From positions 8,013 through 72,012 of the forward strand of contig DAOMOX010000002.1 in the NCBI GenBank assembly GCA_035444565.1: 64,000 nt of DNA. Reading direction: 5' to 3'. Positions 14,722 through 31,294 of this stretch are shown here, one piece after another; position 1 is the stretch's first letter, and each line of letters opens with the position of its first letter. A program made the translations under genes and the position numbers. Source of the stretch: Candidatus Dojkabacteria bacterium. GTDB lineage: Bacteria > Patescibacteriota > Dojkabacteria > B142 > OLB20. The notes beneath the pieces are model-generated. The model searched no databases, was not told the origin of the DNA, and was given only the letters and a program-made list of their open reading frames with translations.

Positions 14722-14874
14722 TAGTAAATAAATAAAATATAAAATATAAATAGAGATTATTCTCTATAATCATTATATCATTCAATTCAAAACTCATGTT
14801 GTAAAAAAACTTTTTTATATTTGTACTTATGATATTTCACAATTTAGGATATAATTAACATTATAGCAGTTAAT

Positions 14875-14938: not shown

Positions 14939-14967
14939 TACAAAATACATTATAATTAGTAAATCAT

Positions 14968-15031
14968 GCCGAGGTGGCGAAATGGTAGACCCCGCCAAAC
15001 TTCGTTAGCGGGGCAAGCGCGCTCATTAAAA
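14968..15031 (+). pseudogene. tRNA-Leu-like degenerate fragment B (second copy of the roughly 93-bp fragment-plus-spacer unit)
   Basis: GCCGAGGTGGCGAAATGGTAGACCCCGCCAAACTTCGTTAGCGGGG..., same architecture as fragment A. The spacer tcattaaaatagaaaattcatctaaattagtaaaagat resembles the spacer preceding the intact tRNA. Confidence 0.4.
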
Positions 15032-15060
15032 TAGAAAATTCATCTAAATTAGTAAAAGAT

Positions 15061-15141
15061 GCCGGGATGGCGAAATGGTAGACGCGCTAGTCTTAGGAAC
15101 TAGTCCCTTCGGGGGTGGAGGTTCGAGTCCTCTTCCCGGCA
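15061..15141 (+). tRNA. tRNA-Leu (anticodon UAG), class II tRNA with a long variable arm
   Basis: Acceptor GCCGGGA/TCCCGGC with discriminator A. D-arm GCG-AAATGGTAGA-CGC. Anticodon stem CTAGT/ACTAG with loop CTTAGGA. Variable arm CCCTTCGGGGG. T-arm GGAGG-TTCGAGT-CCTCT. No encoded CCA. Confidence 0.85.
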
Positions 15142-15249
15142 TACTTAGTAAAACATAATTTTCTCCAAGTTTATTATTTTTAGGTTCTCCCTCTACGCCA
15201 AGGCTTCGAGGGATTAACCAGTTCTACGCCTCATACTTCGGCTAAATCT

Positions 15250-15273
15250 GGTTTAAGAGTCCTCTCCTCGGCA
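15250..15273 (+). pseudogene. Degenerate tRNA 3-prime-end fragment (T-loop plus 3-prime acceptor strand CCTCGGC-A) complementary to the GCCGAGG acceptor of fragments A and B
   Basis: GGTTTAAGAGTCCTCTCCTCGGCA versus the intact tRNA 3-prime end GGTTCGAGTCCTCTTCCCGGCA. The acceptor strand is the exact reverse complement of GCCGAGG. It lies 110 nt downstream of the intact tRNA, abutting the giant-gene operon. Confidence 0.35.
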
Positions 15274-18200: not shown

Positions 18201-19541
18201 AGTTTTAAAAATATCAACTGGGTAACTATCTTCTTCCGTGATTTCAACCAATGACTTTGACCAATAAGAAAACTCAAGTTTTGCCGCTTCTTTTAATTTT
18301 AACAATTTCTCATTTTCTTCCAGTTTCATTTCTACTACATCATGTACTACGACATCTGGAGCATCAGTCAAATTGTCTATACTTCTTATAATTGTATTAT
18401 TCACAGAGAATTTTGATTCGGCAGCCTTAATTAATCTCTCCATCTCCGCAGTACTATAAATATCTTTTTCTGAGAATACTTCAGCATCTGATGCGAAATC
18501 ACCTACAGCCCTAATGAAATTATTTTTATCACGAACTACATCTCTGTTCTTTAAATGTCTTCCTTCATCATAAGATAAATCACTATATAAAATACTTGTA
18601 GTATCGATATATCCTGAATCCAATGCTTCTTTAAAAAGTTTTAACACAGCTAAATGATTTCCTGGTTTAAGTGGAAAGCTGGTTGTATTTCCAGTATCTA
18701 ACCATGATTCTACAATTTTCGATTTACTTACTTCATCAAGTGAACTTACACTTTCAATCCATTTATCAGAAAAGTATGCAGCTGCATCGGGATTTAATTT
18801 TTTTAAAGTTGACTGAAAACCGAAATTTTCTGTAATTTCAAGTTCTGTAACAACAGGTATGAAGGCAAAAAACCTACTTTCAGTGAGATTGTCTATTTGT
18901 GAAATTCTATTTGCAACATCAAAATAAAAATCTATATATTTTTCAGAATTCCCAAAGTGCTTAAATCCACTCTGCATAAGCTCTACGACAAAATTAGCAT
19001 AACTATCTTTATCATCTTGTGATTCGAGTTTGTTTTTTACCCCATCATAGCCTTCTATTAGTTGAGTTATCAGAGTTTGAAATTTTGTTTCATCTTCTGG
19101 AATAAATTCAACAGCAGAAATTACCCTTTTCGTATCAGAGATAAATGAATTCAAACCATATGATCCACCTATGTTGTTAAAATAGGAAGCAGATTGATTC
19201 CCTCTTTCCTTTCTCCAAAAAGGATTTACAAATGATGGAAGATCTTCGTTACTTAAATCTAGTATACTAAGCAATCCATGCTCCCCCAAAATCGTATTTG
19301 CTAAACTTCTCTTTTCATCCACACCAAGGGCCTCAATTGCACCAATCCCTTTATGCCCAATATTAGCAATAATTTGGAGTCTCTCAGGAGCCGAGTATTT
19401 TTTTGGATTTGTTAATAACTCGAGTTGTTCACCAATTGTCCTCCGCGGAGTAACATTATTTATGTAGGTTACTCTATCAGGAGCTACAGGAGGTCCTTGG
19501 AGTATGGTTTGCATCCCTGTAAGATTTGATTCTGTACCCAT
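15297..19541 (-). CDS. Giant (1414 aa) cytoplasmic protein with two tandem MutS-domain-V-like ABC ATPase modules (module 1 canonical, module 2 lacking the catalytic His) and no mismatch-binding domain
   Basis: Module 1 (aa about 690-830, nt about 17470-17050): GGPTGSGKTYALRILF, LFADELLSGGTDLAASVIEYI, TTVVTSHHVEEL, collinear with the MutS domain V in this window. Module 2 (aa about 1225-1350, nt about 15870-15490): GNQKAGKSASLISEAAMVAHTIISGYCPGEN, RIIRSIGSDNY...WVFIDEASNGVDKSTKQAVIALFLAKALE, TTLLDET. Confidence 0.7.
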   Translation of the reverse strand: MGTESNLTGMQTILQGPPVAPDRVTYINNVTPRRTIGEQLELLTNPKKYSAPERLQIIANIGHKGIGAIEALGVDEKRSLANTILGEHGLLSILDLSNEDLPSFVNPFWRKERGNQSASYFNNIGGSYGLNSFISDTKRVISAVEFIPEDETKFQTLITQLIEGYDGVKNKLESQDDKDSYANFVVELMQSGFKHFGNSEKYIDFYFDVANRISQIDNLTESRFFAFIPVVTELEITENFGFQSTLKKLNPDAAAYFSDKWIESVSSLDEVSKSKIVESWLDTGNTTSFPLKPGNHLAVLKLFKEALDSGYIDTTSILYSDLSYDEGRHLKNRDVVRDKNNFIRAVGDFASDAEVFSEKDIYSTAEMERLIKAAESKFSVNNTIIRSIDNLTDAPDVVVHDVVEMKLEENEKLLKLKEAAKLEFSYWSKSLVEITEEDSYPVDIFKTRKFPVDGENTYSASSYLGEIQSFITENRVEGSTLESGFKGRYEVSVLIDLCDFLNYANLTDQDFQVIIDFISKADPETKELLENYAVFGAKRLIPSFYSADNYTTYKEKGGYEQTLTALEKLDILFEEISSIEQESGRVTIKEFINPASAELSALLGFLKGTTNNPENILDSASNNIRLDKFVGVLAGMYWIPRFRESLGVYVQPSTDEYEILEGRVLSNTPRRNCLPNYQIGGLLNMAFGKGTSTVIGGPTGSGKTYALRILFESLFPGNRSVPNAKVSRPFSATRNSTDGIYRVGFEVPDPNQSLADQSISELVEVINTDTLFADELLSGGTDLAASVIEYIQLLKRKRAGLTTVVTSHHVEELGALDYLLGESGLHHVNIIPISHEAREGMSSSFGPETYQRIGSRVSEDIARMIEELKQQIMFGTEEIVPPLQEVEYSPTSEVFDEKTIDELQLKDIYTIMMDSMFRDSSSINTNEISSAFTEFLKEQSSSGPEFFEEEIHKRIDDFLQEDSHILRDRLVHFSERLDGVKLAKRALQGIGSMDYIDKYELYSYLLSLTKPEGNDFVGISVREQEIMEQMKDFGLETQDLLLVNPENVVSLSMKLADAIRYDYKIKDKYPNVARMLNFNLNNHLSGDDLQKLTSDSSEVLRILLNKDKTRKESDDKERAEKVFSEYLNPVILDLEEHLGKDKLKSILGISSNIDHLNSINLSALYALTIKNGLKGNKIFTKPSYDSTGNTHLSYSASFNIHLLKELGDQYIPVGTPEFSGENVVAQVKIGNQKAGKSASLISEAAMVAHTIISGYCPGENVNFKKRPKAIAARIIRSIGSDNYSQYETEARKLVGIYKAMAENPDTWVFIDEASNGVDKSTKQAVIALFLAKALENDSPIYLTTLLDETKTLMKLPGSEKIAYVGYDRKKGKYQGKEGVVEPDTIELAKEKGLLDYNDYELAIKLYRLLLEYYQ

Positions 19542-19590: not shown

Positions 19591-22500
19591 TTATTTTATA
19601 GAAGCGTACATTATTTCCAATATGTAATACTGTGCAGTAGTCTCTGTGATTTGTTTTGGTAAGTCCAATTTACCAAGTCTTGATCTTAATTTTATAGTTA
19701 TTTTATTTAAAAGTTGCTGATATTCATTATTAGTAAGTTGTGCAGTTATAATCTTTGCTGCATTTGAAATTGCTGTAATTGTATTCTTTCTGACAGTATC
19801 TGCATTCGGGTCTTGATTATTCATAATCTCATTAATAATTAAGTCTAGTTCTCGTTTTAAACCAGTCCTATCTGTTTGTAATTCATTTTTAATTACATTT
19901 CTCACTAAATCTAATATCTCTTCGTTTGGCAATGTTATTTCATTAGTTGTTAAATATGCTCGTAAATTTTCGGTATTGGAATCAGTATCAATTACAGTTT
20001 CGGTTCCCATGATGGGAAGAATAGGATTGTCGACGGGTAAATCTTCTACATCCTCAGCTTCTCTTCCCACAAGTTCTTTATCTTGAGGAGATGAGGCCAG
20101 TTCTATTAACCTTTTCTCCGCGTCTGTTCTATTCTCTTCAACTAAACTAACCTTCACCACCCAGCCTTCAATCCCTCCCAAATTTTCTTCCTCTACTCGT
20201 AATTGGTATTTCCCTTCGGCTACTCCCTCATTAATTCTATCTGCAATTTTTCTTGTGGTATCACCGTCTTCTGATACATCGATGAAATCATCGACAACCT
20301 CATTAGTAAGAGTTACATATCCCATCTTCACTAGATCAGGCATGCGGTTTGCCAGATCACCAGTATCATCTATTCTTTCAATTTTATTAGATTTGAAAAC
20401 AAATTTAGAATCATCGGTTTCATCAACTGTATATACCAACCGTCCTCTTATCAAATCCAGTACTATTTCTTCGTCAGAAATTTCTGAACCTACAACAGCA
20501 TTAATCTCTTCTCTTTTGTTTTTGATAATTTCGAGTAAATCAGTTTTTTCTACAAGCCATTTCTCTTCTGATCTCTCATCTGTTACAGGAGAAAAACGGA
20601 CTTCTCTTCGACCTGAAACTATCTCATCTTTAGCATTCTCATCAAGTTGACCTCCAACCAGTTCTACTAATTCACCCAGTCTTCTCATATTGTAGTGTAA
20701 TAGTGCTCTTTTAGTAGCTTCTGCATTTTGGAATGAAAGCTCTACAGAATCTCCACTTTCACTTGTTGATTCGGTCTCAGTAAAGGGTTCTTCCTTCATT
20801 ATAGTTTCGGCTTGTTCTACGGGAATCACCAATAATTCATTAAATTTCTCTGTTAATCTCTCCTTTCCGGCAACCTTCTCTCTATCCACTTTTAATTTGC
20901 CTTTTATTTGCATAACATCTTCCGTACTAGTATCAGCGTCTTTTATAATCAATCCGGCATATTCTAATAGTTCTAAGACCTCAGCTTCGGGAAGGTTTTC
21001 ATAATCTATATTCCCTGATTCGGAAGCATCATCACTTAACCACAAAGCAGTTCTTCTATTTATTTCATTCAATACTATTCTGGTAATATTATCTGAGCCT
21101 CTAGTATCTTTTTCAATATTTCTCAATGTGTAGAGTACATTGCTTGGAAGTCTTCTGCTGAATTCATTGGAAGTAAGTCCCATATCGGGATCGTTATATT
21201 TCCCGCGTATTTCAATATAGGTATCATACACAGTAGCTCCAGGAGTTATGTCTAGGATTGTGTATTCTGCGCCTTCACTTTCAACATCAACTGCTGCTTC
21301 CGATATTAAAGGTTCTGCGACAAGGTCATTTCTATCACTTTGGTCAACCTCGGCATCAACAACTACAAATTCCCAAGCACTAATCCCATCAGGCATTTCA
21401 GGGATAGTTCTAGTCTGTAATGTAACTTCGTTATTTATTATTTTTCTAACTAAGACTTCTACAAATTTTTCTCTGAAATCATCAGGATTACTATCGGGAT
21501 TTCTTTCTGATAGATCAGATATTACTGATTCGGGTATATCCGAGGATAAAACATCATTATTTATCACTGTTTGAAGCAAACCTTGCACGTCATTTTCATT
21601 TAGTTCATCGCTAAATAAATTTTTATAACCTGCCAAAAGAGAATTTACGTATTCATCTCTATTATCAAAAGTAGGATTTCCATCAATAGCATTACTATAT
21701 ATGTAACTTCTTGAAGCTAGTAATGCTTCTTGTTCTGGTTCTAAACTAATAATTTTACTAATATCTTTATCCCGTATCCGTATATCTCCATTTAAAATCC
21801 AGGCATCATAGCCACTATATTGACTGTAATAATATGCAACTTTGCTGTTTTCTCCTATTATAGGTTGATTTAATGCTAATTCTAACTGAGAACGTATATC
21901 ATCTTTTTCCTTATATTCCCTAAATTTATCTGAAACAATAAATGTTGAATCACCAAGAACAACATCTGTTAGATCTAATAATGGCTCTTCTTCTGGAGTA
22001 GAACTAAAATTCTCAACAAGGACGTACTCATATATTCCTAGTCCTTCTAAACCAGGTATTTCTCTGGTGGTGAAAGTGTAATAATCACCCACTCTATCTA
22101 TTTCTTCAATTATAGTCTGACCAACAATTCTTCGTAACTCGTTAAGGTCTGTGATTTTATTAATACCTTTCTTCAATTTTAAAGTTTCAATAATTCCTTG
22201 TGGTAGTTCCGGTGATAATAGTCTTCCTAATATTTCTGGAATTTCATTTGTATTTTTAACGTCATTCTCTATTCTTCTAAGAATGTCCTCTCTGTCAACA
22301 ACTTCGTTCTGAGATATGTCTTGTGTATCAAATGATATTGAATACCTAATGTTTCTGTCGTAACTACTCTCTCCACTTCCTAATAAGTTTCTCGAAAAAA
22401 GAGTTCTTATCTGACCACGATTAAGATCTAGTGATGAATTATCTTTATTTGATAAAACTACCTGTTCGGAAGGATAAAATATGTGCACGTACTGAGGTGT

Positions 22501-25500
22501 TTCAAGATATATTCTTTCATCAGATAATATAAGTGGTGACCCGAGTGCCCATGATACACGTTCGAACAAATCACTATTTATAATTGCGTTCTTAATCTCA
22601 TTGTGTTGATCTTCATTAATACCCAAACCTTCTCTAAATTCTTCATCTCTAATTTTCTCTTGTCTCCGTCTATAAAGTGCGAAACCCCCAAATGCTGCTG
22701 TTAGTATTCCGAGAGTGGCGACACTTCCTATGATAAGTGGTTTTTTCATATCTTCTGGTATACCAGCATCCTCCAACATTGCATCGGTATCGACACCTTC
22801 TCCTGGAACAGGTTCCAATGGAGCTGTCGTTGGTTCTGGGGTTACAAATGGTTCGATTTCGGAAGTTGCGGTTTCTTTAACCTCTTCTGTGGGTTCTGGT
22901 GTAGCTGTAAATGTTGTCTCAGCAGTAGGTGACTGCTCTGTGGGAATAGATGTTGCGGTAACTGAAGCAGTCTCCTCTGGGGTTGTTACTGTTGTTGCAG
23001 TTAATTCTTCTTGGGATTGTTTTGCCTCAGCAGTCGGAGCCTGTGTTGTGTTTGTAGCTGTAGTCTGAGCAGTTGCTGAAGGAGTGACAGATGCAGTGGT
23101 TACTTCAACACGTGATTCAGATCTTGGCAATTGGTTTTGACCTTCTACATTATCTTTAATAAAATCTTTTACTGATTGTGGCAAATCTAGAACTGAGTAA
23201 GTCCCTTTTGATATTTGATTACCGTTACTTGTCCCAGCTACACTATATACTACTACTTCATCACCATAATTACTTCCGTCTGGCTTCATCAGCTTTACAA
23301 CTACTTCAGGCGAAGGACTATTATCTCTATTTACTATAATAAAACTCTCTTCAGTAACTACAAAATCATCACCTTCTTTGTAAATTACCGAACCATACTG
23401 GTCTGAAATCCTAGGATCCTCTAATGATTCGAAATCAAAAGCTGCTGTTGCAGTTGGTGCTGAAATTGTTGCTGTAGCTGTTTGAGTTAAGGTTGGTTCT
23501 GCAGTTGAAATTGGTGTTGCTTCTGGTTCAGCAGTGCTAGTTGCAGTAGGTTCGGGGGTTGATGTTACGGGAGGTGTTCCCTGAACATCTGAGTCTGATA
23601 GATTATTAAAAGTGTTGATGGTCGCTTGATCTACTTGGATATCTAATTTAGGATTTTCGTCAGTATCTTTTATACCCAATAAGTTAAATATATTTATATT
23701 TTTTTCATTTAAAATTTCTTGAAGTCTATTCAACATTCTGGGGTTTGTATATATTGCTACTACTTCTTCATAGGATTGTACTGACGTACTTGTGATAGGA
23801 TTCTCATCACCTTCATCTGTAGTATATAATATTCTCTCACCAAGTAAACTTTGTATGGTGCTATGTAATGTCATTAGAGCCACTGCAGGATCATCAGTCT
23901 CAACTACAGTGCCCTCAAAATTAAGAACTCGAATCAGATAGCCACTATCTTCTAATCCATCCCATCTTCCTCCATTTTCTCGTTCAATTACATCAAGTAA
24001 TGCATGTTGGGTAAGTTCTGAAAACGGTGCTAATCTTCCTGTTCGGAACTGCTCAGGTATATCAGAGTCATATCTATCTTCAATTCCAAGTTCTTTAAGA
24101 GCTTCGTATAAATGCTCAAACTTATAATCACCTTCTGGGAATCTTTCTATCGCAGAAAGTATAAGCCCGTTGACTAATAATTGAGAAATTTCCTCTCTAA
24201 TTATATCCATTCCCTCACCTGCGATTGTTTGGCCATCATTTACATCCTCATTAAAGTTCTGGAAGATACTGATTGTGTGAAATTTAAAACCATCCTCTGT
24301 GTAATTCGGGGGAGTTGTGGCAACTGAGCTTCTTTGTTCAATTATTTCTCGGTACTCATCGCCGATTGAGAAATTAATATTATTTGGAACAAAATCCTGA
24401 TTTCCGTTTAGATGAATAGAGTAGCCCATTTTACTTGCTATTTGTTCAACAAGATCATAGCTCACATTAAATTTTGTTTGCTGACCATTAATAGTTAAGT
24501 TTATTTCAATAGGATTTTCCTTATCTAATCTCTGGAATTCTTTAGGTTCTGGAGGAAATTCCTCCATTAATTTTTGTGCTTCTGTGGGGGTTGCACTCGC
24601 ATCTACTGTCGGAGCAAGGGTAGGTTCTTCTTCAACCGGCTCGGGAGTTGATACATTTCTAGTCGCTTCAGCTACTCGATCAAATATTCCTTTTATCAAT
24701 TCAATGTAATCCCCTTCTGGAACATCTGGGAATGCAGTGATAAATTCTTCTCTTGTTAAACTCTCGAAATTTTTATCATCTACTCTCTGATAAGAATTGT
24801 TTTCATACTTTTCAATGACTACATATGCCTCACTACCTTCACTAGGTCTTACAGTTAGTCGATATTCGGGATCTATATCATTGTCTGTATTTAAATAGAC
24901 ATAAATTCCATTATCTCCCTTTCCACTTACTTCTTTCATCATCCATTGACCTTTTTGATCACTGCCATTACCCAATGAATCTCCACCTTCGAAATTATCG
25001 AGTATATTTTTTCTATATTCCTCTTCATCCACGAAGTTGATCTCGGCTTCTTGAGCTTCGATTGTTCCTTCCGGAACAGGAGTAGGTCCTTCGTCACCAG
25101 TCTCTGGAGTGGCTGTTATAGTTCCTTCCTCTACCGCAGGTTCACTCGTAGCTGTAGGTGTGGTACTAGGTGGTGGAGACGTTGGAGTTGGTTCCGTACT
25201 GTTTGTTGTATCTCCCGTAGGTTCAGGTGTCGGATTTGTTACGGTCTCGGCATTATCACCTGTCACTTGTAGACTATCTGGAAGGTACTCCGCAATCTTT
25301 TGATTAGCCAATTCAACCATATCTCCTACAGAACCTGGCCTTTCTTCCTCATTGATTCTAAATTCAAGAATTCTTGTATCGGGAGGGATATTGTCTCCAG
25401 AAATTATTTCATAGTCAGAATTTACAGCTGTACTAATAAACAGTTGACCTTCAACATCTATTAATGCAACACCTTGATTCTTGATTTGTGTAGCGACATC

Positions 25501-28500
25501 ATCGCCAATTTCATTTAATGTGACGTATTTATCATTTGATGTTAAGAATTCATCCAAATCGATTTTTCCTTCTTCTATCAGTTTATCTGCTAAAGCCTTT
25601 AATCCCTCAATATCTTCAGGAATATCACCCGCATCGATTCCGTAGAAATGAGGTCCCCCGTGAAGGCTTCCTGTTATTCTCCCCGAGGAATCAGCATTAA
25701 TTTCGAGCGTGTAGTATGTTCTCTGTTCCTCTACACCTTCATTATTTATTTCGTTAAATGTTTGAGACCTCAATGCAACACCATGTTCAATTAGTGACTC
25801 TTCTGCCAATTTGTTTGATTGAGCAACTTCTTCAGATGTTGAATTTTCAGATCCACCAAAAATCGGAATGTTTGTCGTAACTACATCAGACCCTACTGTG
25901 AATTCTGTGTCAGGTATCTCCACAGTTGGAGAAACGATATCTTCAGCAGAATCGCTTTCATCTTCTACTCCATCTTCAACTTGTTCGTCGACAGTTTCCT
26001 CTGTAGTAACTCCTTCTCCGGTTGATTCATCTTGAGCAATTGGTCCAACTGCCCTCAATCTCATGTCTATACCAATATCTTCTGTCAATTCCACTAAAGA
26101 AAGCTCACTTACAATACTTTGAGGTCCAGCCATAACTGTGAATTCCGTTTGTTCTCCTATTACTGATCTGGTTTGATTGGAGCTTGTAGTTACTATTACG
26201 AATTCTCGTTCCTCTCCATCAACCTGAAGAGTGATAATAGGTAGTTCCCCTTCGTCTAATTCATTTAAGTAAGTTTGTATTTCTGATTGTAATGTTTGAG
26301 GCAAATCTGACAGACTTGTTGGTGCTGTTGTCTGAGTACCTGAAGTTCCTAACGTTGTAGAGTTGTCAACAACAGTAGACATTGAGACTGGTGAAATGTT
26401 TGTTCCAGAAATCGGCTCAAGTTCAGGTACGGTATCAGCGTCTATTGTGCGACCAAGAGTTATATCCACGGATGCTTGAGCATCTTTATAAATTTCATCG
26501 ATATGTTCTTGAGTCATCTTCCCATCTGAGAGATCTTCAGTTTGTTCAGCACTAAGCTCGACTAGGAAAATACGATTATGCGTACCAAGATTTGAATCAC
26601 CCGGAATAGTAACCAATACAAATTTGTTTTCTACAAAAGTAGCGTTTTCTCCCTCCTGTTCTACAACATTTAATATTCTAATACCTGAACCTGCTCCAGA
26701 ATCATTCAAAATTTCACCATCAACAACTCCGTTTAAAGATATAGAATATCCGCTATTTAAAACACCGGGTATAGAATCTTCTACTAAATTACCACCCTCA
26801 TTAATTATATATGGAGTTAAATCTTTGATATTACTTTCGGAGATGACGAGTTCAGAGAGCATACTATGTGGTTTCAAGACTAGTACATCTTGAGGATTTG
26901 GGTACCCAGAATTGTTATAGAATCTCTCGACCTGAGTTTCATCGCGGCTAATGGAGGCTACATCAAAATCTTCATTAGGTGAATTATGAGTATATACAAT
27001 ATTACCCAACATTGTTGTAAATGTCTGTGGCTCTCCAATTATGAGCTGAACACTTTGACCCGTACTACTTGGTAGGGTTAGTAACCCATCATTAATAAGC
27101 TCTTTTAGCTGATCCCCTGTTAGAGCTGATTGATAATGATTTAAGACATCATTCCATGTACTGAATGTAATTGAATTATTTGAGCTTAAGATATTATCTG
27201 TTGCATCTGCGACTGCATTGATTTGTTCATTAGTTAGACCTATCTCTTGTAACTGCTCAATACCCTCAGGAGATGGCATTTGATTGAGGATTTCATCTAC
27301 ATCTAAAGTTACTGGTGTATTTGAGGGAAACCTTGATAATTCAATTTCTTGTGTAAGTAAACCATCTTGAACAACCTTTTGTCCATTTTCTTCGGTGATA
27401 TCTGATTCATTTATCAGTCTCCACTGGTTATTCTCAAGAACAACCAATCCATATACAATACTACCCTCAGCTGTTGTATTATCCCCATCGATATCTACTT
27501 TTAAACTTAGCGTTCCATAAGGCAAACCATCTGTTTCATTGAAATATCCTTCAGATGGAATTTCTCCTGTAATAACTCTTCCTGTTTCAGGTAAGTTATC
27601 AAAAGGGAACGCTGTTTCACCATTTGATAAAACGACACTAGTTCCAATTTCATCTACATTTTCAATCTGAGTTTTAAAGTTATCACTATTAACTATATTA
27701 TGTAGTTCTGTTTTTAATTCATCAACGGGTCTTCCAATCCATTCATCACCTTCTAAAAATTGCGATGCATAAATAATATTGTCAGGAGCATTTCTCAAAT
27801 CTCCATCATATATAGCATTCTCTCCGTCGACATCAGGAACGACAGCATAGACAACCTGTACGACAAATTCATCCTGCGATGTTCGCATTGTTCTTATGAA
27901 CAAATCATCATCAGATGGCAATCTTTCTAAGTCTATATCGCTTACAAATAAATCTATCACTTTTGCGTGTTCAGAAGTACCTAAAATGACAGGTGAATGA
28001 TCTACATGATTATTTAATTCGTCAGGAACTGGGGCAAATATATTATCAACAACTTGATAGAATAGGATATCTTTTTCCAGATTTGCTCCCGCGATAGGGG
28101 TGTCATCAATTTTCCCACCAACTAATAATAAATCGTTTTCTTGATATTGGCTATGATTGACGTCACTAGGAATATAATTTGTTCGTACATTTAGTTCTCC
28201 TGTATCTGTTAAGCTATATGATCGCGCTGCAATAGTAATACTCTCTTCTTCTGGATGATTATTTAACCAATCCTTTACATCTCCATAAGTCCATCCAGCA
28301 TATTTGGATACTTCGCTCAGTCTATGTTCTAACTCTTCTTCTGGATTTTCTGTGTCAAGTACATTTATATCTCCAACAATTTGTTCAACTTGTTTATATA
28401 CAATTTCGGGCTCCACATCATGATCCACATCAAATCCAAAAGCAAGGCTTCCAGCATGTGTAGTTGCCGATTCAGGTGATTCCAGTTTATAAGTACCCGT

Positions 28501-30771
28501 AGCAGGGTCAAAGTGCAAAGCTCCGTAATATGTCTCAGAACCATCAGGATTCTCAACGACAGCCACTCCTCCATTTAACGGTTCGTTTAGCTCTGCTACT
28601 ACACCATCTTCACCCCAGATTTCGTGACCTTCTCTTACTACCTCAGCGACTGCCTCCCCAATACCATTTCCAGGTGTAACTTCTCCGATGCCGACGGATT
28701 GACTGTCACTGCCAGCTGGTTCATAAAGAACTTGATCAAGTATGGCAGATGTGGGTTGTTCGAAGACAGCTGCCATCTGAACTGCTATAGATGCATCTAT
28801 TCCAAATTCTTCGTGAAGTAATTTTTGTATATTACCTTCATGTTTATCAATCATCTCTGGTGTGATGCCATCTAAGAGATTGATTTGATCATCTGTAAGG
28901 GTTCTTATGGTATCCACATTTACTATTTGTCGTTCGTGTAATTCAGTTCGCTCCTCAGAGTCTGCACCCTGTATATTATGCAAAGCTTTTTGTATATCAT
29001 CAATTTTATTGCTTAACTCAACCTGTTCCAATTCGCTGATTGGCTTTTGCCAATGTTCGACGGATGAATCCACATGCTCAGCGGGTGGAGCTTCTTCTAT
29101 CACCCTACTACCTGTAGTTTCTGGTGTTTGATTATCAATATTGTTTTCTAGAGAAGTCTCCGTTAATACTGCTTCATCAGTTTGTTTAGAATCTTCTCGA
29201 TATACCATTTGCTCCACACCACCATTGTCAGCTCTATGGAATTCACCTTTCTCAACAGCATCAGCCATTGCTTGATACCTTTCGTAATCATTATGGCTAT
29301 CGACCTTATCTTGTGCAATTCTTGCTAAACTCTCCAAAGCGTCTTCGCGAACTTGAGATGGTGGTGTTTGAAGATGGTCAGCCTGGTCGACAACATCATT
29401 AGTCTCGTTTGAATCCATCCCATAACCGGAAGTTGCTGCTAGATATTCATCGAAAAAGTCATCTGAATCATTATCTCTTAAATCGTATAATTCTCCTGAT
29501 ACTACGGCTCCTGCTGGCATAAATATACTTGCCACAACTCCAGTAAGCCTGAGGGTATTTAGTGATAATTGAATTACCTTTCTTTGCTTTGGGGTCAATC
29601 TATCTAATAATCCTGCATCTGGCTCTTTATTACTAAGTAGAATTTCTGCAATTCCTTCATCCTCAAAACCTCGCACTTCTAGTATTGACGCCTGTTCAGG
29701 ATTGAGTTTCCCTTGCGAAATAAGCTCTTGTTCTTGTTGGTATTTATTCTGTAGTAATCTCCTAGCTAAAAATTCCAATTCAGTCAATGTGAGGTTTGTT
29801 CCATTATCTGCGTTGATTTGATCCAAAGCAGCTTTAGCAATTTTCTTTGTACCAGAATCAAATCCCATATTAGCGAATCTATATGCCATCTCAACTGACA
29901 TGTTCACACCTTGATCATTGGTCCAAATTACTGTACTTTCTGCTGAATGAGTAGGTAAATATGTCTTACTCTGAAGATTTTTATAACCTTTTGCCACTGT
30001 TTCGATAGAAGTAATTGAAGGTGCTGTTATATCAGTAATGTCTTCTCTTTTCTTAAGTGCGATCGTCGTAATTTCGTCAATACTCGTATTTGGGTTTAAC
30101 ACGTGTTCTGTAGTAATTAATTTGGATGCTAATTCTGATTCGTGAAGTAGTGCTACAAGCTCTCTCGGTAGGACTTTATTTAATTTGCCGTCCGTTGTGA
30201 GATTAACATATTTACTTAATACATCATTTAAACTTGCAAGGGATGCTCCATAATTTTCACCTAAAACATCAATTGACTCGCCTAAATACCTCTGAATAGT
30301 CTCAAAAACTATAAGCTGCCCATCTGCACTTAGATTTCCTTCTTTACTAAATAACTCCTTGTCACTGATTTCTAGTTCATTTAGTAGTCTATCTAGATAA
30401 TAAGCAAATGCTGCATCTTCAGTTTCAGATGTTGTATCTAATTCTGGAAGAATTTCATATATTTTATCTGCTCTCTGCACAATAGACAGAGAAGATGTCA
30501 CCTCCTTCCTTTTGGTTTTACCACCTCCTAATATTTTGAGACCTCCGATTTTAACGACTTCTGTTCTGGTATATCTCTCTCCTAACAAAACGTTATTCCG
30601 GAATTCCACGTCTGGCTTATAATCACCACTATCTAACAATAGAGGATTTTCCGTTCTGTTACCTAACAAATCTTGTGCTGCCATTGTTGCAAATACTTCT
30701 GTCATAACTCGCACATCAGGCGGGATATTTGTTGGTTTAGTGACTTCTACCACTGATCTCTCAATTCCCAT
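19591..30771 (-). CDS. Giant (3726 aa) bitopic membrane protein: N-terminal region of about 2600 aa with Thr/Pro-rich low-complexity stalks, one TM helix with an RRRQEK stop-transfer, and an acidic C-terminal domain of about 1100 aa
   Basis: Single hydrophobic segment PLIIGSVATLGILTAAFGGFALYRRRQEK (aa about 2600), preceded by a PT/TA-rich stalk (…TPEPTTAPLEPVPGEG…). Additional PT tracts sit at aa about 1390 and about 2240. No recognisable catalytic motifs and no N-terminal signal peptide. The intact 11.2-kb ORF is co-directional and contiguous with the MutS-like ATPase gene. Confidence 0.6.
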   Translation of the reverse strand: MGIERSVVEVTKPTNIPPDVRVMTEVFATMAAQDLLGNRTENPLLLDSGDYKPDVEFRNNVLLGERYTRTEVVKIGGLKILGGGKTKRKEVTSSLSIVQRADKIYEILPELDTTSETEDAAFAYYLDRLLNELEISDKELFSKEGNLSADGQLIVFETIQRYLGESIDVLGENYGASLASLNDVLSKYVNLTTDGKLNKVLPRELVALLHESELASKLITTEHVLNPNTSIDEITTIALKKREDITDITAPSITSIETVAKGYKNLQSKTYLPTHSAESTVIWTNDQGVNMSVEMAYRFANMGFDSGTKKIAKAALDQINADNGTNLTLTELEFLARRLLQNKYQQEQELISQGKLNPEQASILEVRGFEDEGIAEILLSNKEPDAGLLDRLTPKQRKVIQLSLNTLRLTGVVASIFMPAGAVVSGELYDLRDNDSDDFFDEYLAATSGYGMDSNETNDVVDQADHLQTPPSQVREDALESLARIAQDKVDSHNDYERYQAMADAVEKGEFHRADNGGVEQMVYREDSKQTDEAVLTETSLENNIDNQTPETTGSRVIEEAPPAEHVDSSVEHWQKPISELEQVELSNKIDDIQKALHNIQGADSEERTELHERQIVNVDTIRTLTDDQINLLDGITPEMIDKHEGNIQKLLHEEFGIDASIAVQMAAVFEQPTSAILDQVLYEPAGSDSQSVGIGEVTPGNGIGEAVAEVVREGHEIWGEDGVVAELNEPLNGGVAVVENPDGSETYYGALHFDPATGTYKLESPESATTHAGSLAFGFDVDHDVEPEIVYKQVEQIVGDINVLDTENPEEELEHRLSEVSKYAGWTYGDVKDWLNNHPEEESITIAARSYSLTDTGELNVRTNYIPSDVNHSQYQENDLLLVGGKIDDTPIAGANLEKDILFYQVVDNIFAPVPDELNNHVDHSPVILGTSEHAKVIDLFVSDIDLERLPSDDDLFIRTMRTSQDEFVVQVVYAVVPDVDGENAIYDGDLRNAPDNIIYASQFLEGDEWIGRPVDELKTELHNIVNSDNFKTQIENVDEIGTSVVLSNGETAFPFDNLPETGRVITGEIPSEGYFNETDGLPYGTLSLKVDIDGDNTTAEGSIVYGLVVLENNQWRLINESDITEENGQKVVQDGLLTQEIELSRFPSNTPVTLDVDEILNQMPSPEGIEQLQEIGLTNEQINAVADATDNILSSNNSITFSTWNDVLNHYQSALTGDQLKELINDGLLTLPSSTGQSVQLIIGEPQTFTTMLGNIVYTHNSPNEDFDVASISRDETQVERFYNNSGYPNPQDVLVLKPHSMLSELVISESNIKDLTPYIINEGGNLVEDSIPGVLNSGYSISLNGVVDGEILNDSGAGSGIRILNVVEQEGENATFVENKFVLVTIPGDSNLGTHNRIFLVELSAEQTEDLSDGKMTQEHIDEIYKDAQASVDITLGRTIDADTVPELEPISGTNISPVSMSTVVDNSTTLGTSGTQTTAPTSLSDLPQTLQSEIQTYLNELDEGELPIITLQVDGEEREFVIVTTSSNQTRSVIGEQTEFTVMAGPQSIVSELSLVELTEDIGIDMRLRAVGPIAQDESTGEGVTTEETVDEQVEDGVEDESDSAEDIVSPTVEIPDTEFTVGSDVVTTNIPIFGGSENSTSEEVAQSNKLAEESLIEHGVALRSQTFNEINNEGVEEQRTYYTLEINADSSGRITGSLHGGPHFYGIDAGDIPEDIEGLKALADKLIEEGKIDLDEFLTSNDKYVTLNEIGDDVATQIKNQGVALIDVEGQLFISTAVNSDYEIISGDNIPPDTRILEFRINEEERPGSVGDMVELANQKIAEYLPDSLQVTGDNAETVTNPTPEPTGDTTNSTEPTPTSPPPSTTPTATSEPAVEEGTITATPETGDEGPTPVPEGTIEAQEAEINFVDEEEYRKNILDNFEGGDSLGNGSDQKGQWMMKEVSGKGDNGIYVYLNTDNDIDPEYRLTVRPSEGSEAYVVIEKYENNSYQRVDDKNFESLTREEFITAFPDVPEGDYIELIKGIFDRVAEATRNVSTPEPVEEEPTLAPTVDASATPTEAQKLMEEFPPEPKEFQRLDKENPIEINLTINGQQTKFNVSYDLVEQIASKMGYSIHLNGNQDFVPNNINFSIGDEYREIIEQRSSVATTPPNYTEDGFKFHTISIFQNFNEDVNDGQTIAGEGMDIIREEISQLLVNGLILSAIERFPEGDYKFEHLYEALKELGIEDRYDSDIPEQFRTGRLAPFSELTQHALLDVIERENGGRWDGLEDSGYLIRVLNFEGTVVETDDPAVALMTLHSTIQSLLGERILYTTDEGDENPITSTSVQSYEEVVAIYTNPRMLNRLQEILNEKNINIFNLLGIKDTDENPKLDIQVDQATINTFNNLSDSDVQGTPPVTSTPEPTATSTAEPEATPISTAEPTLTQTATATISAPTATAAFDFESLEDPRISDQYGSVIYKEGDDFVVTEESFIIVNRDNSPSPEVVVKLMKPDGSNYGDEVVVYSVAGTSNGNQISKGTYSVLDLPQSVKDFIKDNVEGQNQLPRSESRVEVTTASVTPSATAQTTATNTTQAPTAEAKQSQEELTATTVTTPEETASVTATSIPTEQSPTAETTFTATPEPTEEVKETATSEIEPFVTPEPTTAPLEPVPGEGVDTDAMLEDAGIPEDMKKPLIIGSVATLGILTAAFGGFALYRRRQEKIRDEEFREGLGINEDQHNEIKNAIINSDLFERVSWALGSPLILSDERIYLETPQYVHIFYPSEQVVLSNKDNSSLDLNRGQIRTLFSRNLLGSGESSYDRNIRYSISFDTQDISQNEVVDREDILRRIENDVKNTNEIPEILGRLLSPELPQGIIETLKLKKGINKITDLNELRRIVGQTIIEEIDRVGDYYTFTTREIPGLEGLGIYEYVLVENFSSTPEEEPLLDLTDVVLGDSTFIVSDKFREYKEKDDIRSQLELALNQPIIGENSKVAYYYSQYSGYDAWILNGDIRIRDKDISKIISLEPEQEALLASRSYIYSNAIDGNPTFDNRDEYVNSLLAGYKNLFSDELNENDVQGLLQTVINNDVLSSDIPESVISDLSERNPDSNPDDFREKFVEVLVRKIINNEVTLQTRTIPEMPDGISAWEFVVVDAEVDQSDRNDLVAEPLISEAAVDVESEGAEYTILDITPGATVYDTYIEIRGKYNDPDMGLTSNEFSRRLPSNVLYTLRNIEKDTRGSDNITRIVLNEINRRTALWLSDDASESGNIDYENLPEAEVLELLEYAGLIIKDADTSTEDVMQIKGKLKVDREKVAGKERLTEKFNELLVIPVEQAETIMKEEPFTETESTSESGDSVELSFQNAEATKRALLHYNMRRLGELVELVGGQLDENAKDEIVSGRREVRFSPVTDERSEEKWLVEKTDLLEIIKNKREEINAVVGSEISDEEIVLDLIRGRLVYTVDETDDSKFVFKSNKIERIDDTGDLANRMPDLVKMGYVTLTNEVVDDFIDVSEDGDTTRKIADRINEGVAEGKYQLRVEEENLGGIEGWVVKVSLVEENRTDAEKRLIELASSPQDKELVGREAEDVEDLPVDNPILPIMGTETVIDTDSNTENLRAYLTTNEITLPNEEILDLVRNVIKNELQTDRTGLKRELDLIINEIMNNQDPNADTVRKNTITAISNAAKIITAQLTNNEYQQLLNKITIKLRSRLGKLDLPKQITETTAQYYILEIMYASIK

Positions 30772-31081
30772 TTGTTTTTTCTATTAATGCATAATTAAAT
30801 ATCTCCCTAACATCGGAGTTTACAGACTTAAATATATTTTCAATGTCTGTTTCATTAAGTTTTTCATTCATAAAATCTAAAAACTCAATCGTAATACCAC
30901 TTTTTAAAATATTTAACATTAGCGGTTTTTCTTCTGTTGGGAGCTTTATGAACAAATAATTAATAACTTTATTAATTAATAGAGTTCGCATAATAGAGTC
31001 TTTACTTGATAAATCCTGAGAAAAAATCACTTTAAGTAGTGCCTGATATTTATCTTTTGAATTAATTCTCTTCAATTTCAT
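30761..31081 (-). CDS. Hypothetical 106-aa protein, first gene of the giant-protein operon (overlaps the start of the 3726-aa gene by 11 nt)
   Basis: Intact ORF whose stop overlaps the start of the giant ORF. No recognisable motifs. Confidence 0.35.
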   Translation of the reverse strand: MKLKRINSKDKYQALLKVIFSQDLSSKDSIMRTLLINKVINYLFIKLPTEEKPLMLNILKSGITIEFLDFMNEKLNETDIENIFKSVNSDVREIFNYALIEKTNGN

Positions 31082-31294
31082 AAAAGTGTCGATTTAGTGT
31101 ATTTATGTAATACTTTGATATTAATGATTATATAACACATTCAAATTTCTGTGTTATGTTAATAAAGTTATTTAAATCATACAGTTTTTAATAGAAAAAT
31201 AAAGTTTTTTCTAAATCACGTTTAAATTTTTATTGTTTGAATTTACTTAAATTGAATAAAAATATAAGATGTAAATATCTTTAATAATTTCGCT

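What the first reader, a model, noticed from the sequence alone, without database searches (positions are those of the whole stretch)
19591..31081. About 15.8 kb operon: 106-aa ORF, then a 3726-aa bitopic giant protein, then the MutS-like tandem ATPase, abutting a tRNA-Leu locus
The 3726-aa ORF has a single TM helix at aa about 2600 with a textbook stop-transfer (ALYRRRQEK). PT-rich stalk-like tracts lie on the N-terminal side. On the C-terminal side sits a very acidic, cytoplasmic-looking domain of about 1100 aa. There is no N-terminal signal peptide, so topology and export of the 2600-aa N-terminal region are unresolved. A giant envelope-spanning protein coupled to a dedicated cytoplasmic ATPase is reminiscent of host-attachment or secretion apparatus in episymbiotic bacteria, but no family is recognisable. 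This is the strongest candidate in the window for an undescribed system. The 106-aa ORF and the ATPase are translationally contiguous with the giant gene (11-nt overlap on one side, 49-nt gap on the other).
Basis: partly seen in the sequence, partly recalled or inferred. Interest (0 to 1): 0.75.

Follow-up and report, generated by a model that had tools for sequence, protein, structure and literature searches.

The report
Giant two-pass surface protein with MutS-like ATPase
A tiny-celled candidate-phylum bacterium (Dojkabacteria) carries a three-gene operon found almost nowhere else: an orphan 3726-residue membrane protein that probably loops about 2250 fast-evolving residues outside the cell, a previously undescribed ATPase made of two fused MutS-type modules, and a small protein, all of unknown function.

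Summary
The three co-directional genes are real and intact. The exact 3726-aa ORF was assembled independently from at least two sequencing runs. The organism is a Candidatus Dojkabacteria (CPR) bacterium.

There are two hydrophobic helices, at aa 408-427 and aa 2678-2700 (not about 2600). Both are conserved in position in the only full-length ortholog. This gives an N-in / about 2250-aa outside loop / C-in hairpin, so no signal peptide is needed.

The loop is nearly unalignable between genomes whose ATPases are 75% identical, and it is 840 aa in one against 2250 aa in the other. The cytoplasmic modules are conserved.

The "MutS-like tandem ATPase" call is confirmed by profile methods. Both modules are MutS domain V type, and no MutS domains I-IV are detectable. 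The family is extremely rare: 7 hits among 1.84 billion cluster representatives, and nothing in 185,579 species genomes.

There is no evidence for an island, a defence system, a phage or a plasmid. Function is inferred only. The most likely reading is a host- or surface-contact protein whose cytoplasmic tail is worked by a nucleotide-driven clamp. Structure prediction failed because too few homologs exist.

The parts
30761..31081 (-). Small ORF, 106 aa, no TM segment, near-neutral charge. First gene of the unit; overlaps the giant's start by 11 nt.
   Evidence: The ortholog (105 aa, 39% identity) is in the same position with a 14-nt overlap in L001. Weak SpoVG and JetB-like hits are below threshold, and the JetB hit is not reproduced in the ortholog.
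19591..30771 (-). Giant protein, 3726 aa, no cysteine, acidic throughout, orphan family.
   Evidence: No Pfam, NCBIfam, PADLOC, PHROGs or PDB sequence match. The identical ORF is on independent assemblies.
29557..30771 (-). Giant aa 1-405: N-terminal domain, inferred cytoplasmic (K+R 11%). Residues 51-405 are conserved with the ortholog.
   Evidence: 27% identity to ortholog aa 57-517; composition; module search.
29491..29550 (-). Giant aa 408-427: TM1, inferred internal signal-anchor helix (RLTGVVASIFMPAGAVVSGE). 3 K/R and 0 D/E in the 15 residues before it; 1 K/R and 7 D/E after it.
   Evidence: KD 1.57. Aligns with ortholog helix aa 403-434, KD 2.21.
22741..29490 (-). Giant aa 428-2677: inter-TM loop of about 2250 aa, inferred extracellular. 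K+R only 5.4%, net charge -317. PT-rich linkers sit in its TM2-proximal half, the last one (aa 2552-2659) directly before TM2.
   Evidence: The ortholog loop is only 838 aa, also K+R-poor (6.6%) and cysteine-free, and is unalignable apart from one module.
25531..25887 (-). Giant aa 1629-1747: the only loop module conserved with the ortholog (30% identity to its aa 844-957).
22672..22740 (-). Giant aa 2678-2700: TM2, a strong stop-transfer helix followed by YRRRQEK.
   Evidence: KD 1.91. Aligns with ortholog helix aa 1271-1299.
21298..22662 (-). Giant aa 2704-3158: two tandem copies of a roughly 225-aa cytoplasmic module ('M'), each ending in G-[LI]-x-x-[YW]-E-[FYI]-V-[LV]-V.
   Evidence: Copy 1 is 39-42% identical to ortholog aa 1247-1524. 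Copy 2 matches ortholog aa 1330-1520 at E 8e-6. HMM iteration finds further copies in the ortholog and in the L003 fragment.
20122..20832 (-). Giant aa 3314-3550: cytoplasmic module 'X', 35% identical to ortholog aa 2297-2535.
19594..19995 (-). Giant aa 3593-3726: C-terminal module 'C', the best-conserved part of the giant (65% identity). Predicted helical. Candidate docking site for the ATPase (inference).
   Evidence: The AF2 model has low confidence but is all-helical.
15297..19541 (-). Tandem MutS-type ABC ATPase, 1414 aa, soluble (no hydrophobic segment).
17580..19541 (-). ATPase aa 1-654: N-terminal domain with no detectable relatives outside the three orthologs. Fastest-evolving part (65% and 28% identity).
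16827..17579 (-). ATPase aa 655-905: module 1. Walker A GPTGSGKT (K703), signature-like S753, Walker B D774-E775 (ADELLSGGT), H-loop TSHH (H808).
   Evidence: hhalign against the window's MutS domain V: 93.8%, E 1.7e-7. Against module 2: 95.9%, E 5.9e-9. Invariant residues across 7 family members. HMM picks the real MutS as the only other window ORF, E 1.5e-6.
15990..16826 (-). ATPase aa 906-1184: linker between the modules. Predicted helical only in a low-confidence model. No similarity to MutS domains III/IV detectable.
15300..15989 (-). ATPase aa 1185-1414: module 2. Walker A GNQKAGKS (K1236), S1284, Walker B D1311-E1312 (IDEASNGV). The H-loop His is replaced (TTLLDET), so this is possibly a slow or regulatory site.
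   Evidence: The family profile hits MutS2 (9kce_B, E 2.3e-10), Msh3 and Taq MutS (1ewr, E 1.2e-8) over the whole of domain V. hhalign against the window's MutS: 87%, E 3.9e-6. Relatives hit Pfam MutS_V, one above the gathering score. HMM hits the window's MutS at E 1.7e-11.
31082..31294 (.). AT-rich divergent intergenic region between the small ORF (-) and a flavodoxin/PFOR operon (+). Presumed promoter region of the unit (inferred).
   Evidence: Promoter-like matches are not above shuffled expectation.

Best explanation
This is a lineage-specific, vertically inherited three-gene unit of a Dojkabacteria (CPR) bacterium.

SHOWN: (1) The giant protein has two conserved hydrophobic helices, at aa 408-427 and 2678-2700. 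The segments on their outer sides (aa 1-405 and the 1026 C-terminal aa) have twice the K+R content of the segment between them. (2) The segment between the helices carries PT-rich linkers, lacks cysteine, and has diverged almost beyond alignment and by 1400 aa in length. The flanking segments keep recognisable modules, and the ortholog carries a PP2C phosphatase domain on the C-terminal side. (3) The downstream protein is a single-chain tandem of two MutS domain V type ABC ATPase modules. Both keep the Walker A lysine, the Walker B D-E and the signature-like serine. Module 2 lacks the H-loop histidine. No MutS DNA-binding or lever domains are detectable.

INFERRED: (a) TM1 acts as an internal signal anchor and TM2 as a stop-transfer, so the Sec pathway places about 2250 residues outside the cell as a loop. 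The PT-rich tract before TM2 serves as a wall-spanning stalk. The N-terminal domain and the C-terminal modules (two M modules, then X, then C) stay in the cytoplasm. (b) The exposed loop is a fast-diversifying contact surface for a host cell, a substrate, or phage or immune evasion. (c) The two ATPase modules form an intramolecular head-to-tail dimer, as MutS-family domains do between subunits. ATP-driven closure moves the family-specific N-terminal and linker domains. These act on the conserved cytoplasmic tail of the giant, most plausibly the 65%-conserved C-terminal module. That would couple the cytoplasm to the state, assembly or turnover of the surface loop. (d) The 106-aa protein is an accessory subunit or chaperone.
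For: Gene order and tight junctions are conserved in all orthologous loci: window (11-nt overlap, 49-nt gap), L001/L002 (14-nt overlap, 49-nt gap) and L003 (4-nt overlap between giant and ATPase). Two TM helices are aligned between orthologs. K+R is 11.1 / 5.4 / 11.4% in the window protein and 11.6 / 6.6 / 11.3% in the ortholog for the N-terminal part, loop and C-terminal part. The ortholog has canonical PP2C motifs C-terminal of TM2 (DGVGG, GTT, NVGDS, FSDGL, DDIS; Pfam PP2C_2 E 1.3e-4). All four ortholog cysteines lie outside the loop. Identity falls from 75% in the ATPase to 65%, 42%, 35% and 27% in the cytoplasmic modules and to no alignment for most of the loop. MutS-type modules. Within the ATPase, the modules are conserved (88-90%) and the N-terminal domain varies (65%), as expected for a partner-specific adaptor. 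More distant tandem ATPases are also immediately preceded, on the same strand, by large acidic orphan proteins. The full-length ORF is intact in independent assemblies.
Against: There is no direct evidence of any interaction between the giant and the ATPase. The three syntenic loci come from one narrow lineage, so conserved order is weak evidence of function. TM1 of the window protein is only moderately hydrophobic (KD 1.57) and contains Pro and Gly; no dedicated topology predictor was available. Positive-inside bias is clear for the window protein but weak for TM1 of the ortholog. The partners of the distant ATPases have no TM helices and share no module with the giant, so the ATPase family is not intrinsically a membrane-protein partner. 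No adhesin, enzyme or receptor domain could be identified in the loop. Both structure predictions failed (pLDDT 33 and 49). No expression data are available.
Confidence: 0.4

Rival explanations
1. The ATPase is a nucleic-acid or ribosome-directed MutS-family enzyme (as MutS acts on DNA and MutS2 on collided ribosomes), and is linked to the giant gene only by operon position. One version of this: it is a biogenesis or quality-control factor needed to translate or target very long, acidic, proline-rich proteins.
For: Both modules are MutS domain V type, and the best PDB matches are MutS2, Msh3 and MutS. MutS2 is documented to split stalled ribosomes by ATP hydrolysis (PMC10897456, found). Distant tandem ATPases also follow very large acidic ORFs that are not membrane proteins, which fits a link to 'large acidic protein' better than a link to 'membrane protein'. 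The genuine mutS lies only about 1.9 kb away.
Against: No MutS domains I-IV are detectable by Pfam or hhalign. MutS2 is recruited to ribosomes through its KOW and Smr domains (PMC10897456), and Pfam finds neither in this protein. The N-terminal 654 aa are unique to the orthologs. A separate complete MutS is present in the window.
Confidence: 0.25
2. The two genes are functionally unrelated neighbours. The giant is a stand-alone surface protein (adhesin or S-layer-like shield) and the ATPase does something else.
For: There is no interaction evidence. Synteny is seen only within one narrow lineage. The partner proteins of the distant ATPases are unrelated to the giant.
Against: Junctions are tight or overlapping in every locus, including a 4-nt ATGA overlap in the 39%-identical ortholog locus. 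About 1400 cytoplasmic residues of the giant are conserved, including a 65%-identical C-terminal module, which implies an intracellular partner or activity. In the four distant loci examined, the tandem ATPase is immediately preceded on the same strand by one or more unannotated acidic proteins (449 to 1185 aa).
Confidence: 0.2
3. The locus is a horizontally acquired island, an anti-phage defence system or a prophage remnant inserted next to tRNA-Leu.
For: It abuts a tRNA gene that has partial duplicated copies and a 3'-end-like fragment nearby. The related genome has one extra gene at the tRNA side. ABC-type ATPases are common in defence systems.
Against: GC content and skew are continuous with the flanks. 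There is no integrase and no att-like repeat at the far boundary. The chromosomal position is the same in a genome with only 75% ATPase identity. PADLOC gives only 30-40-residue Walker A matches. PHROGs gives none. There are no tblastn matches in 50,697 phage or 72,556 plasmid records, and none in IMG/VR.
Confidence: 0.05
4. The giant ORF is a decaying pseudogene or an assembly artefact.
For: None beyond its unusual size and orphan status.
Against: The reading frame is uninterrupted for 11,181 nt at 36% GC (P about 1e-118 by chance). The identical protein is present on independently assembled contigs from two sequencing runs, and an identical C-terminal fragment is in an NCBI MAG. An intact ortholog has the same module order.
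Confidence: 0.02

Closest known systems
MutS2 / MutS family ABC ATPases (Pfam MutS_V, PF00488)
   Same: Both ATPase modules match MutS domain V at profile level: the order of Walker A, signature-like Ser, Walker B D-E-x-x-x-G-T and (in module 1) the T-H H-loop. The best solved matches are MutS2, Msh3 and MutS. MutS-family domains work as head-to-tail dimers, which a tandem would provide within one chain (established knowledge of the family; the intramolecular dimer itself is inference).
   Different: Two domain V modules sit in one polypeptide. No domains I-IV and no Smr or KOW domain are detectable. There is a unique 654-aa N-terminal domain and a 280-aa linker. The window protein itself does not reach the Pfam threshold. 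Module 2 lacks the H-loop His. The genomic partner is a giant membrane protein rather than MutL or other repair genes.
Single-chain tandem ABC ATPases without membrane domains (UvrA, ABC-F proteins)
   Same: Two ABC-type nucleotide-binding modules are fused in one soluble protein. The UvrA Walker A region is among the weak PDB hits of module 1.
   Different: Those use canonical ABC_tran modules with an LSGGQ signature, whereas these modules are of the MutS type. No zinc modules or DNA- or ribosome-binding inserts are recognisable.
Type VII ABC 'mechanotransmission' systems (MacB, FtsEX, LolCDE)
   Same: Functional analogy only: a cytoplasmic ABC-type ATPase encoded beside a membrane protein whose main mass is an extracytoplasmic loop between TM1 and TM2, with ATP-driven movement transmitted across the membrane instead of substrate transport (my knowledge of those systems).
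   Different: No homology was found. FtsX/MacB-type proteins have four TM helices and loops of about 100-250 aa, and their ATPases are canonical ABC_tran. Here there are two TM helices, a 2250-aa loop, 1400 cytoplasmic residues and a MutS-type tandem ATPase.
Large or giant surface proteins of ultra-small bacteria (CPR hypervariable PT-repeat surface proteins; Omnitrophota giant proteins)
   Same: Very large, membrane-anchored, mostly unannotated, fast-evolving proteins with Pro/Thr-rich tracts, in organisms thought to live attached to other cells (PMC6851277; bioRxiv 10.1101/2023.11.21.568195).
   Different: No shared domains. The Gracilibacteria protein has a single N-terminal TM helix and a nucleotide-level repeat. 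The Omnitrophota giants have many TM helices and embedded SecA-like domains. None is described with a MutS-type partner ATPase or a two-TM hairpin with large cytoplasmic ends.
Membrane-anchored PP2C-type phosphatases (SpoIIE-like receptor phosphatases)
   Same: The ortholog's giant carries a PP2C domain on the cytoplasmic side of TM2. This suggests that the cytoplasmic tail can carry signalling enzymes.
   Different: The window's protein has no PP2C domain. The ortholog segment aa 1525-1942 has no counterpart here.

Membership tests
MutS family ATPase (Pfam MutS_V) | Profile-level similarity to MutS domain V across the whole domain | tested here: met
   The window protein alone is below Pfam reporting. 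The 7-member family profile hits MutS2 9kce_B at E 2.3e-10, Msh3 at E 4.5e-10 and Taq MutS at E 1.2e-8 over about 200 residues. hhalign against the window's MutS gives 87% for module 2 and 93.8% for module 1. The relative P0005 scores 32.4 bits against the gathering score of 30.2.
MutS family ATPase (Pfam MutS_V) | Catalytic motifs: Walker A G-x4-GK[ST], signature-like Ser, Walker B D-E, H-loop T-H | tested here: met
   Module 1 has all four (K703, S753, D774-E775, H808), invariant in 7 sequences. Module 2 has K1236, S1284 and D1311-E1312 but lacks the H-loop His (TTLLDET).
MutS1 / MutS2 proper (mismatch repair or ribosome rescue proteins) | MutS domains I-IV (mismatch-binding, connector, core/lever, clamp), or the Smr/KOW domains of MutS2 | tested here: not met
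   Pfam finds none. hhalign of the N-terminal and linker regions against the window's MutS aa 1-600 gives probability of 0.2% or less. PDB profile hits cover domain V only.
Canonical ABC transporter NBD (Pfam ABC_tran) | ABC_tran profile above threshold, with an LSGGQ signature upstream of Walker B | tested here: not met
   ABC_tran scores 15.2 bits against a cut-off of 25, and only over the Walker A region. The only LSGG-like string (LSGGT, aa 777) directly follows Walker B, in the position of MutS 'GRGT'.
Type VII ABC systems (MacB/FtsX/LolC-like permease) | Four TM helices with FtsX/MacB_PCD domains and an adjacent ABC_tran ATPase | tested here: not met
   Two hydrophobic helices only. No FtsX or MacB_PCD Pfam hit. 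The ATPase is of the MutS type.
Sortase-anchored (LPXTG) Gram-positive surface proteins | N-terminal signal peptide plus a C-terminal LPXTG, hydrophobic stretch and basic tail | tested here: not met
   No N-terminal hydrophobic segment. There is a single LPETG at aa 1060 in mid-loop, not followed by an anchor and absent from the ortholog, consistent with chance.
Known anti-phage defence systems (PADLOC-DB 2.0) | Significant match of any component to a defence-system model beyond the P-loop | tested here: not met
   Only Walker A matches of 30-66 residues (mad3, mad8, AriA) for the ATPases. A JetB-like hit of the small ORF (E 0.006) is not reproduced in its ortholog.
PP2C phosphatase-containing membrane receptors | PP2C catalytic motifs | tested here: not met
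   Absent from the window protein. Present in the ortholog only.
Two-TM hairpin membrane protein with an extracytoplasmic loop (topology class, not a homology family) | Two membrane-spanning helices, positive-inside flanks, and an outside-type composition of the loop | tested here: inconclusive
   Hydropathy, ortholog alignment, K/R distribution, PT linkers, the cysteine pattern and the ortholog's PP2C domain all agree. No dedicated predictor (DeepTMHMM, Phobius) or experiment was available, and TM1 of the window protein is only moderately hydrophobic.

The most novel reading that the evidence does not exclude
The unit is an undescribed kind of envelope-spanning machine. A single-chain MutS-type ATP clamp, a fold so far known to act on DNA and ribosomes, has been recruited to grip the cytoplasmic tail of a giant two-pass surface protein. 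It uses ATP to change the conformation, assembly or shedding of a 2250-residue, rapidly diversifying exterior loop that mediates contact between an ultra-small CPR bacterium and its host. The related tandem ATPases of other CPR lineages would then be a general 'giant-protein handling' ATPase family with lineage-specific partners.
Probability: 0.2. Interest if true: 0.8.

Novelty: new variant of a known kind. Interest (0 to 1): 0.55.

Why it matters
How ultra-small CPR bacteria recognise and hold on to their hosts is largely unknown beyond type IV pili. Their genomes are full of large orphan surface proteins. This locus gives a concrete, testable example: a clear topology model, defined conserved cytoplasmic modules, a hypervariable exposed loop and a dedicated ATPase. 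Separately, a fused pair of MutS domain V modules without any DNA-binding domain extends the architectures known for the MutS family. After MutS2's role on ribosomes, it hints at a further non-repair use of this ATPase. The extreme rarity of the family limits generality: 7 hits in 1.84 billion cluster representatives, and none in 185,579 species genomes. That rarity also makes it a clean lineage marker.

Tried and rejected
1. The whole-giant homology search timed out. The C-terminal 1087 aa found only itself.
2. The ATPase word-indexed search, the exhaustive HMMER search and the profile search together gave only 2 close orthologs and 4 distant relatives.
3. Four pattern scans of the genome and metagenome collections and one of IMG/VR found nothing. 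The patterns require near-exact 7-8-residue motifs, so distant relatives would be missed.
4. AlphaFold2 on ATPase aa 621-1414 (3-row alignment, pLDDT 33) and on the giant's C-terminal 176 aa (single sequence, pLDDT 49) were both unusable, so no fold searches were run.
5. PDB sequence searches with the giant and with its ortholog found nothing.
6. Pairwise BLASTP of the ATPase modules against the window's MutS was not significant (E about 0.2). Only profile methods show the relationship.
7. BLASTP self-comparison of the giant found no repeats. The module M duplication emerged only through the ortholog and HMM iteration.
8. I looked for the giant's modules in the partner proteins of the distant ATPases and found none.
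9. The island hypothesis was rejected, as were the defence hypothesis and phage or plasmid origin.
10. The promoter and terminator scan was uninformative, with counts at shuffled expectation.
11. The weak Pfam hits (COG4_C and DUF5856 in the giant, SpoVG in the small ORF) and the small ORF's PADLOC JetB-like hit are all below threshold and were dismissed.

Full report
OBSERVATION. The window has three co-directional minus-strand ORFs exactly as described: 106 aa (30761-31081), 3726 aa (19591-30771) and 1414 aa (15297-19541). They are joined by an 11-nt overlap and a 49-nt gap. A tRNA-Leu(TAG) lies at 15060-15142 on the opposite strand. The finding's own coordinates cover only the first two genes. 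An 11-kb open frame at 36% GC cannot arise by chance (P about 1e-118). The identical 3726-aa protein, flanked by the same 106-aa and 1414-aa genes, is present on independently assembled contigs from two sequencing runs (SRR1763381 and SRR1763385). Identical fragments in NCBI are labelled Candidatus Dojkabacteria. The gene is therefore real and intact, and the host is a CPR/Patescibacteria bacterium.

SURROUNDINGS. The flanks are ordinary housekeeping genes. On the ATPase side are a secreted 401-aa protein, a complete MutS (all five Pfam domains), NrdR and two ribonucleotide reductases. On the other side, transcribed divergently, are flavodoxin and 2-oxoacid:ferredoxin oxidoreductase subunits. 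GC content and skew run smoothly through the locus. The AT-rich stretch at 31082-31294 is simply the divergent intergenic region.

TOPOLOGY OF THE GIANT. Hydropathy shows two segments, not one. A second helix at aa 408-427 (KD 1.57) has three K/R and no acidic residues in the 15 positions before it, and one K/R and seven D/E after it. The only full-length ortholog (3194 aa, ENA contigs L001/L002) has helices at the aligned positions, aa 403-434 (KD 2.21) and 1271-1299 (KD 2.03).

In both proteins the K+R content is about 11% before TM1 and after TM2 but only 5.4% and 6.6% between them. All PT-rich linkers lie between the helices, and the longest sits directly before TM2. The window protein has no cysteine at all (P about 1e-12 at the window's background), and the ortholog's four cysteines all lie outside the inter-TM segment. 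The ortholog also carries, C-terminal of TM2, a PP2C phosphatase domain with all canonical motifs (Pfam PP2C_2 E 1.3e-4, just below threshold). PP2C is usually a cytoplasmic enzyme type (my knowledge).

Together these point to an N-in / loop-out / C-in hairpin. This is a consistent inference, not a demonstration: no dedicated topology predictor was available, and TM1 of the window protein is only moderately hydrophobic.

MODULES AND EVOLUTIONARY PATTERN. Against the ortholog, whose ATPase is 75% identical, the giant aligns only in patches:
- N-terminal domain, aa 51-405: 27% identity.
- One loop module, aa 1629-1747: 30%.
- A roughly 225-aa module 'M' directly after TM2: 39-42%. It is present twice in tandem here (aa 2704-2935 and 2938-3158) and recurs in the ortholog and in the L003 fragment.
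- Module 'X', aa 3314-3550: 35%.
- C-terminal module 'C', aa 3593-3726: 65%.

The rest of the loop is unalignable, and its length differs by 1400 residues (2250 against 838 aa). The cytoplasmic tail also differs in length (1026 against 1895 aa, including the PP2C insert). So the exposed part diversifies very fast while the cytoplasmic ends are constrained, the C-terminus most strongly. No module has any match in Pfam, NCBIfam, PADLOC, PHROGs or PDB sequences, and none has a paralog elsewhere in the window.

THE ATPASE. The protein is soluble and has two P-loops (GPTGSGKT at aa 697 and GNQKAGKS at aa 1230). Pfam and pairwise BLAST do not identify it. The exhaustive HMMER search of 1.84 billion cluster representatives found only seven hits: itself, one ortholog at 39% identity (P0004), four distant relatives of 1250-1750 aa with the same two-module layout, and one spurious low-complexity hit. 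One of the distant relatives is from Candidatus Beckwithbacteria. The distant relatives hit Pfam MutS_V in their C-terminal module, one of them above the gathering score.

Several profile tests agree:
- A seven-sequence family profile hits solved MutS2, Msh3 and MutS structures at E 2e-10 to 2e-8 across the whole of domain V for module 2.
- hhalign against the window's own MutS gives 87%.
- Module 1 against module 2 gives 95.9% (E 6e-9), and module 1 against MutS domain V gives 93.8% (E 2e-7).
- HMMs of either module pick the genuine MutS as the only other ORF in the window (E 1.7e-11 and 1.5e-6).

The Walker A Lys, signature-like Ser and Walker B Asp-Glu are invariant in both modules. The H-loop His is present in module 1 but replaced in module 2 of the window protein, which suggests an asymmetric pair. 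No MutS domains I-IV are detectable. Conservation is highest in the two modules (90% and 49%; 88% and 62% identity to the two orthologs) and lowest in the 654-aa N-terminal domain (65% and 28%).

DISTRIBUTION AND LINKAGE. All three orthologous loci keep the giant immediately upstream of the ATPase. L001/L002 also keep the small ORF, with a 14-nt overlap and a 49-nt gap. In L003 the (truncated) giant's stop overlaps the ATPase start by 4 nt. In L001 the tRNA-Leu(TAG) is also syntenic, with one extra gene between it and the ATPase.

Pattern scans of 185,579 species-representative genomes, the JGI metagenomes and IMG/VR found no further copy. These scans need near-exact short motifs, so they would miss distant relatives. 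The four distant tandem ATPases are each immediately preceded on the same strand by unannotated acidic proteins: 1003 + 1185 aa with a 4-nt overlap, 1165 + 871 aa, 449 aa, and 494 + 293 aa. These proteins have no TM helices and share nothing detectable with the giant or with each other. So the ATPase family seems to travel with lineage-specific large acidic partners, and the membrane-spanning giant is the Dojkabacteria version.

ALTERNATIVES.
- Island, defence or phage origin is not supported. There is no compositional break, no integrase, and no att-like copy of the tRNA end at the far boundary. The chromosomal site is conserved in a diverged genome. PADLOC gives only P-loop-level matches. 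There are no PHROGs, phage, plasmid or IMG/VR matches.
- A pseudogene or artefact is excluded.
- A nucleic-acid or ribosome-directed role for the ATPase cannot be excluded. This is by analogy with MutS and with MutS2, which splits stalled ribosomes (PMC10897456). The recurrent association with very long acidic ORFs even gives it some appeal, but the domains that MutS and MutS2 use to bind DNA or ribosomes are absent.
- Mere neighbourhood without functional coupling also remains possible, because all syntenic loci come from one narrow lineage.

MOST LIKELY MECHANISM (inferred). The giant is inserted through Sec as a hairpin. A PT-rich stalk carries a large, rapidly diversifying, highly acidic loop through the wall to the cell surface, where it contacts a host cell or other external partner. 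About 1400 conserved residues remain in the cytoplasm. The tandem ATPase forms an intramolecular MutS-style head-to-tail dimer. ATP-driven closure moves its family-specific N-terminal and linker domains, which engage the giant's conserved tail (module C is the best candidate). This would couple nucleotide state to the assembly, conformation or turnover of the surface structure, or relay surface events inward; the ortholog's PP2C domain points to signalling. The small protein would be an accessory subunit or chaperone. I put about 0.4 on this overall picture. I am much more confident in the anatomy (two-TM hairpin about 0.75; tandem MutS-type ATPase about 0.9) than in the coupling and the function.

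COMPARISON AND NOVELTY. The ATPase is a new architectural variant within the MutS/ABC ATPase superfamily: two fused domain V modules and no repair domains. It is not a member of MutS1 or MutS2 proper. The giant is an orphan, within the broad and poorly understood class of large CPR surface proteins. The published examples I found differ in topology and have no such partner (PMC6851277; bioRxiv 10.1101/2023.11.21.568195). The nearest functional analogy is the MacB/FtsEX type of system, where a cytoplasmic ABC ATPase drives a large extracytoplasmic loop, but there is no homology. I found no description of this gene combination in the searchable literature.

LIMITS. Structure prediction failed for lack of homologs, and alignments that included ortholog sequences were not accepted by the tool. 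As a result, no fold-level information could be obtained for the loop, the cytoplasmic modules or the ATPase N-terminal domain.

Noticed in passing
window 14862-15083: Upstream of tRNA-Leu(TAG) there are two further units spaced 93 nt apart. Each repeats the AT-rich promoter-like leader and the 5' half of the tRNA (GCCGAGGTGG[T/C]GAAATGG[C/T]AGAC...) and then diverges into a different hairpin-like sequence. Neither ARAGORN nor Rfam calls them tRNAs. They may be degenerate tRNA duplicates or tRNA-like small RNAs.
   Followed up: partly
window 15143-15273: The non-coding stretch between the tRNA and the ATPase stop codon ends in a tRNA 3'-end-like fragment (15250-15273). The whole stretch is 81% conserved in the related genome (L001 about 16475-16770), which is unusually high for an intergenic region given how diverged the neighbouring proteins are. 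No Rfam match.
   Followed up: partly
L001 5305-5928 (ortholog giant aa 1647-1854): The orthologous giant protein carries a PP2C-type Ser/Thr phosphatase domain with all canonical motifs in its cytoplasmic tail. The window protein lacks it.
   Followed up: yes
L001 14400-16373: The related genome has an extra 657-aa gene, with no Pfam hit, between the ATPase and the tRNA-Leu. It is absent from the window.
   Followed up: partly
window 10821-13415: A complete canonical mutS (Pfam domains I-V) lies only about 1.9 kb from the MutS-like tandem ATPase, separated by the tRNA and one ORF. This may be coincidence or a trace of local origin; it was not resolved.
   Followed up: no
window 13516-14721: The 401-aa ORF has an N-terminal hydrophobic anchor or signal (KD 2.18), a long PT-rich linker (PATPTATSTPRPTATPP...) and many cysteines, so it is probably a secreted or surface protein. 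Its PT-rich region weakly matches a PHROG of unknown function (E 3.7e-7). It contrasts with the cysteine-free giant.
   Followed up: partly
window 2733-7037 and 8402-10180: There are two ribonucleotide reductase large-subunit genes. One is unusually long (1434 aa), with its Ribonuc_red_lgC match split into two stretches and a C-terminal TSCPD domain, so it may contain an intein or insertion.
   Followed up: no
L004 3425-14710; L006 3568-15052; L007 8601-15232; L009 2383-8530: Distant tandem MutS-type ATPases (1250-1750 aa) occur in other genomes, one of them Candidatus Beckwithbacteria. Each is immediately preceded on the same strand by acidic, soluble, unannotated proteins that are unrelated to one another. 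This looks like a recurring 'orphan protein(s) + tandem ATPase' arrangement.
   Followed up: partly
window giant aa 1060 (about 27577-27591): A single LPETG motif sits in the middle of the loop. It is not followed by a membrane anchor and is absent from the ortholog, so it is probably chance.
   Followed up: yes
L001 7505 and 7508 against L002: The two ENA contigs are 99.98% identical. Within the giant gene they differ only by two adjacent G/A substitutions (aa 2380-2381, cytoplasmic part). They also differ by a 1-nt indel in the downstream 657-aa gene, which splits it into two ORFs in L002.
   Followed up: partly
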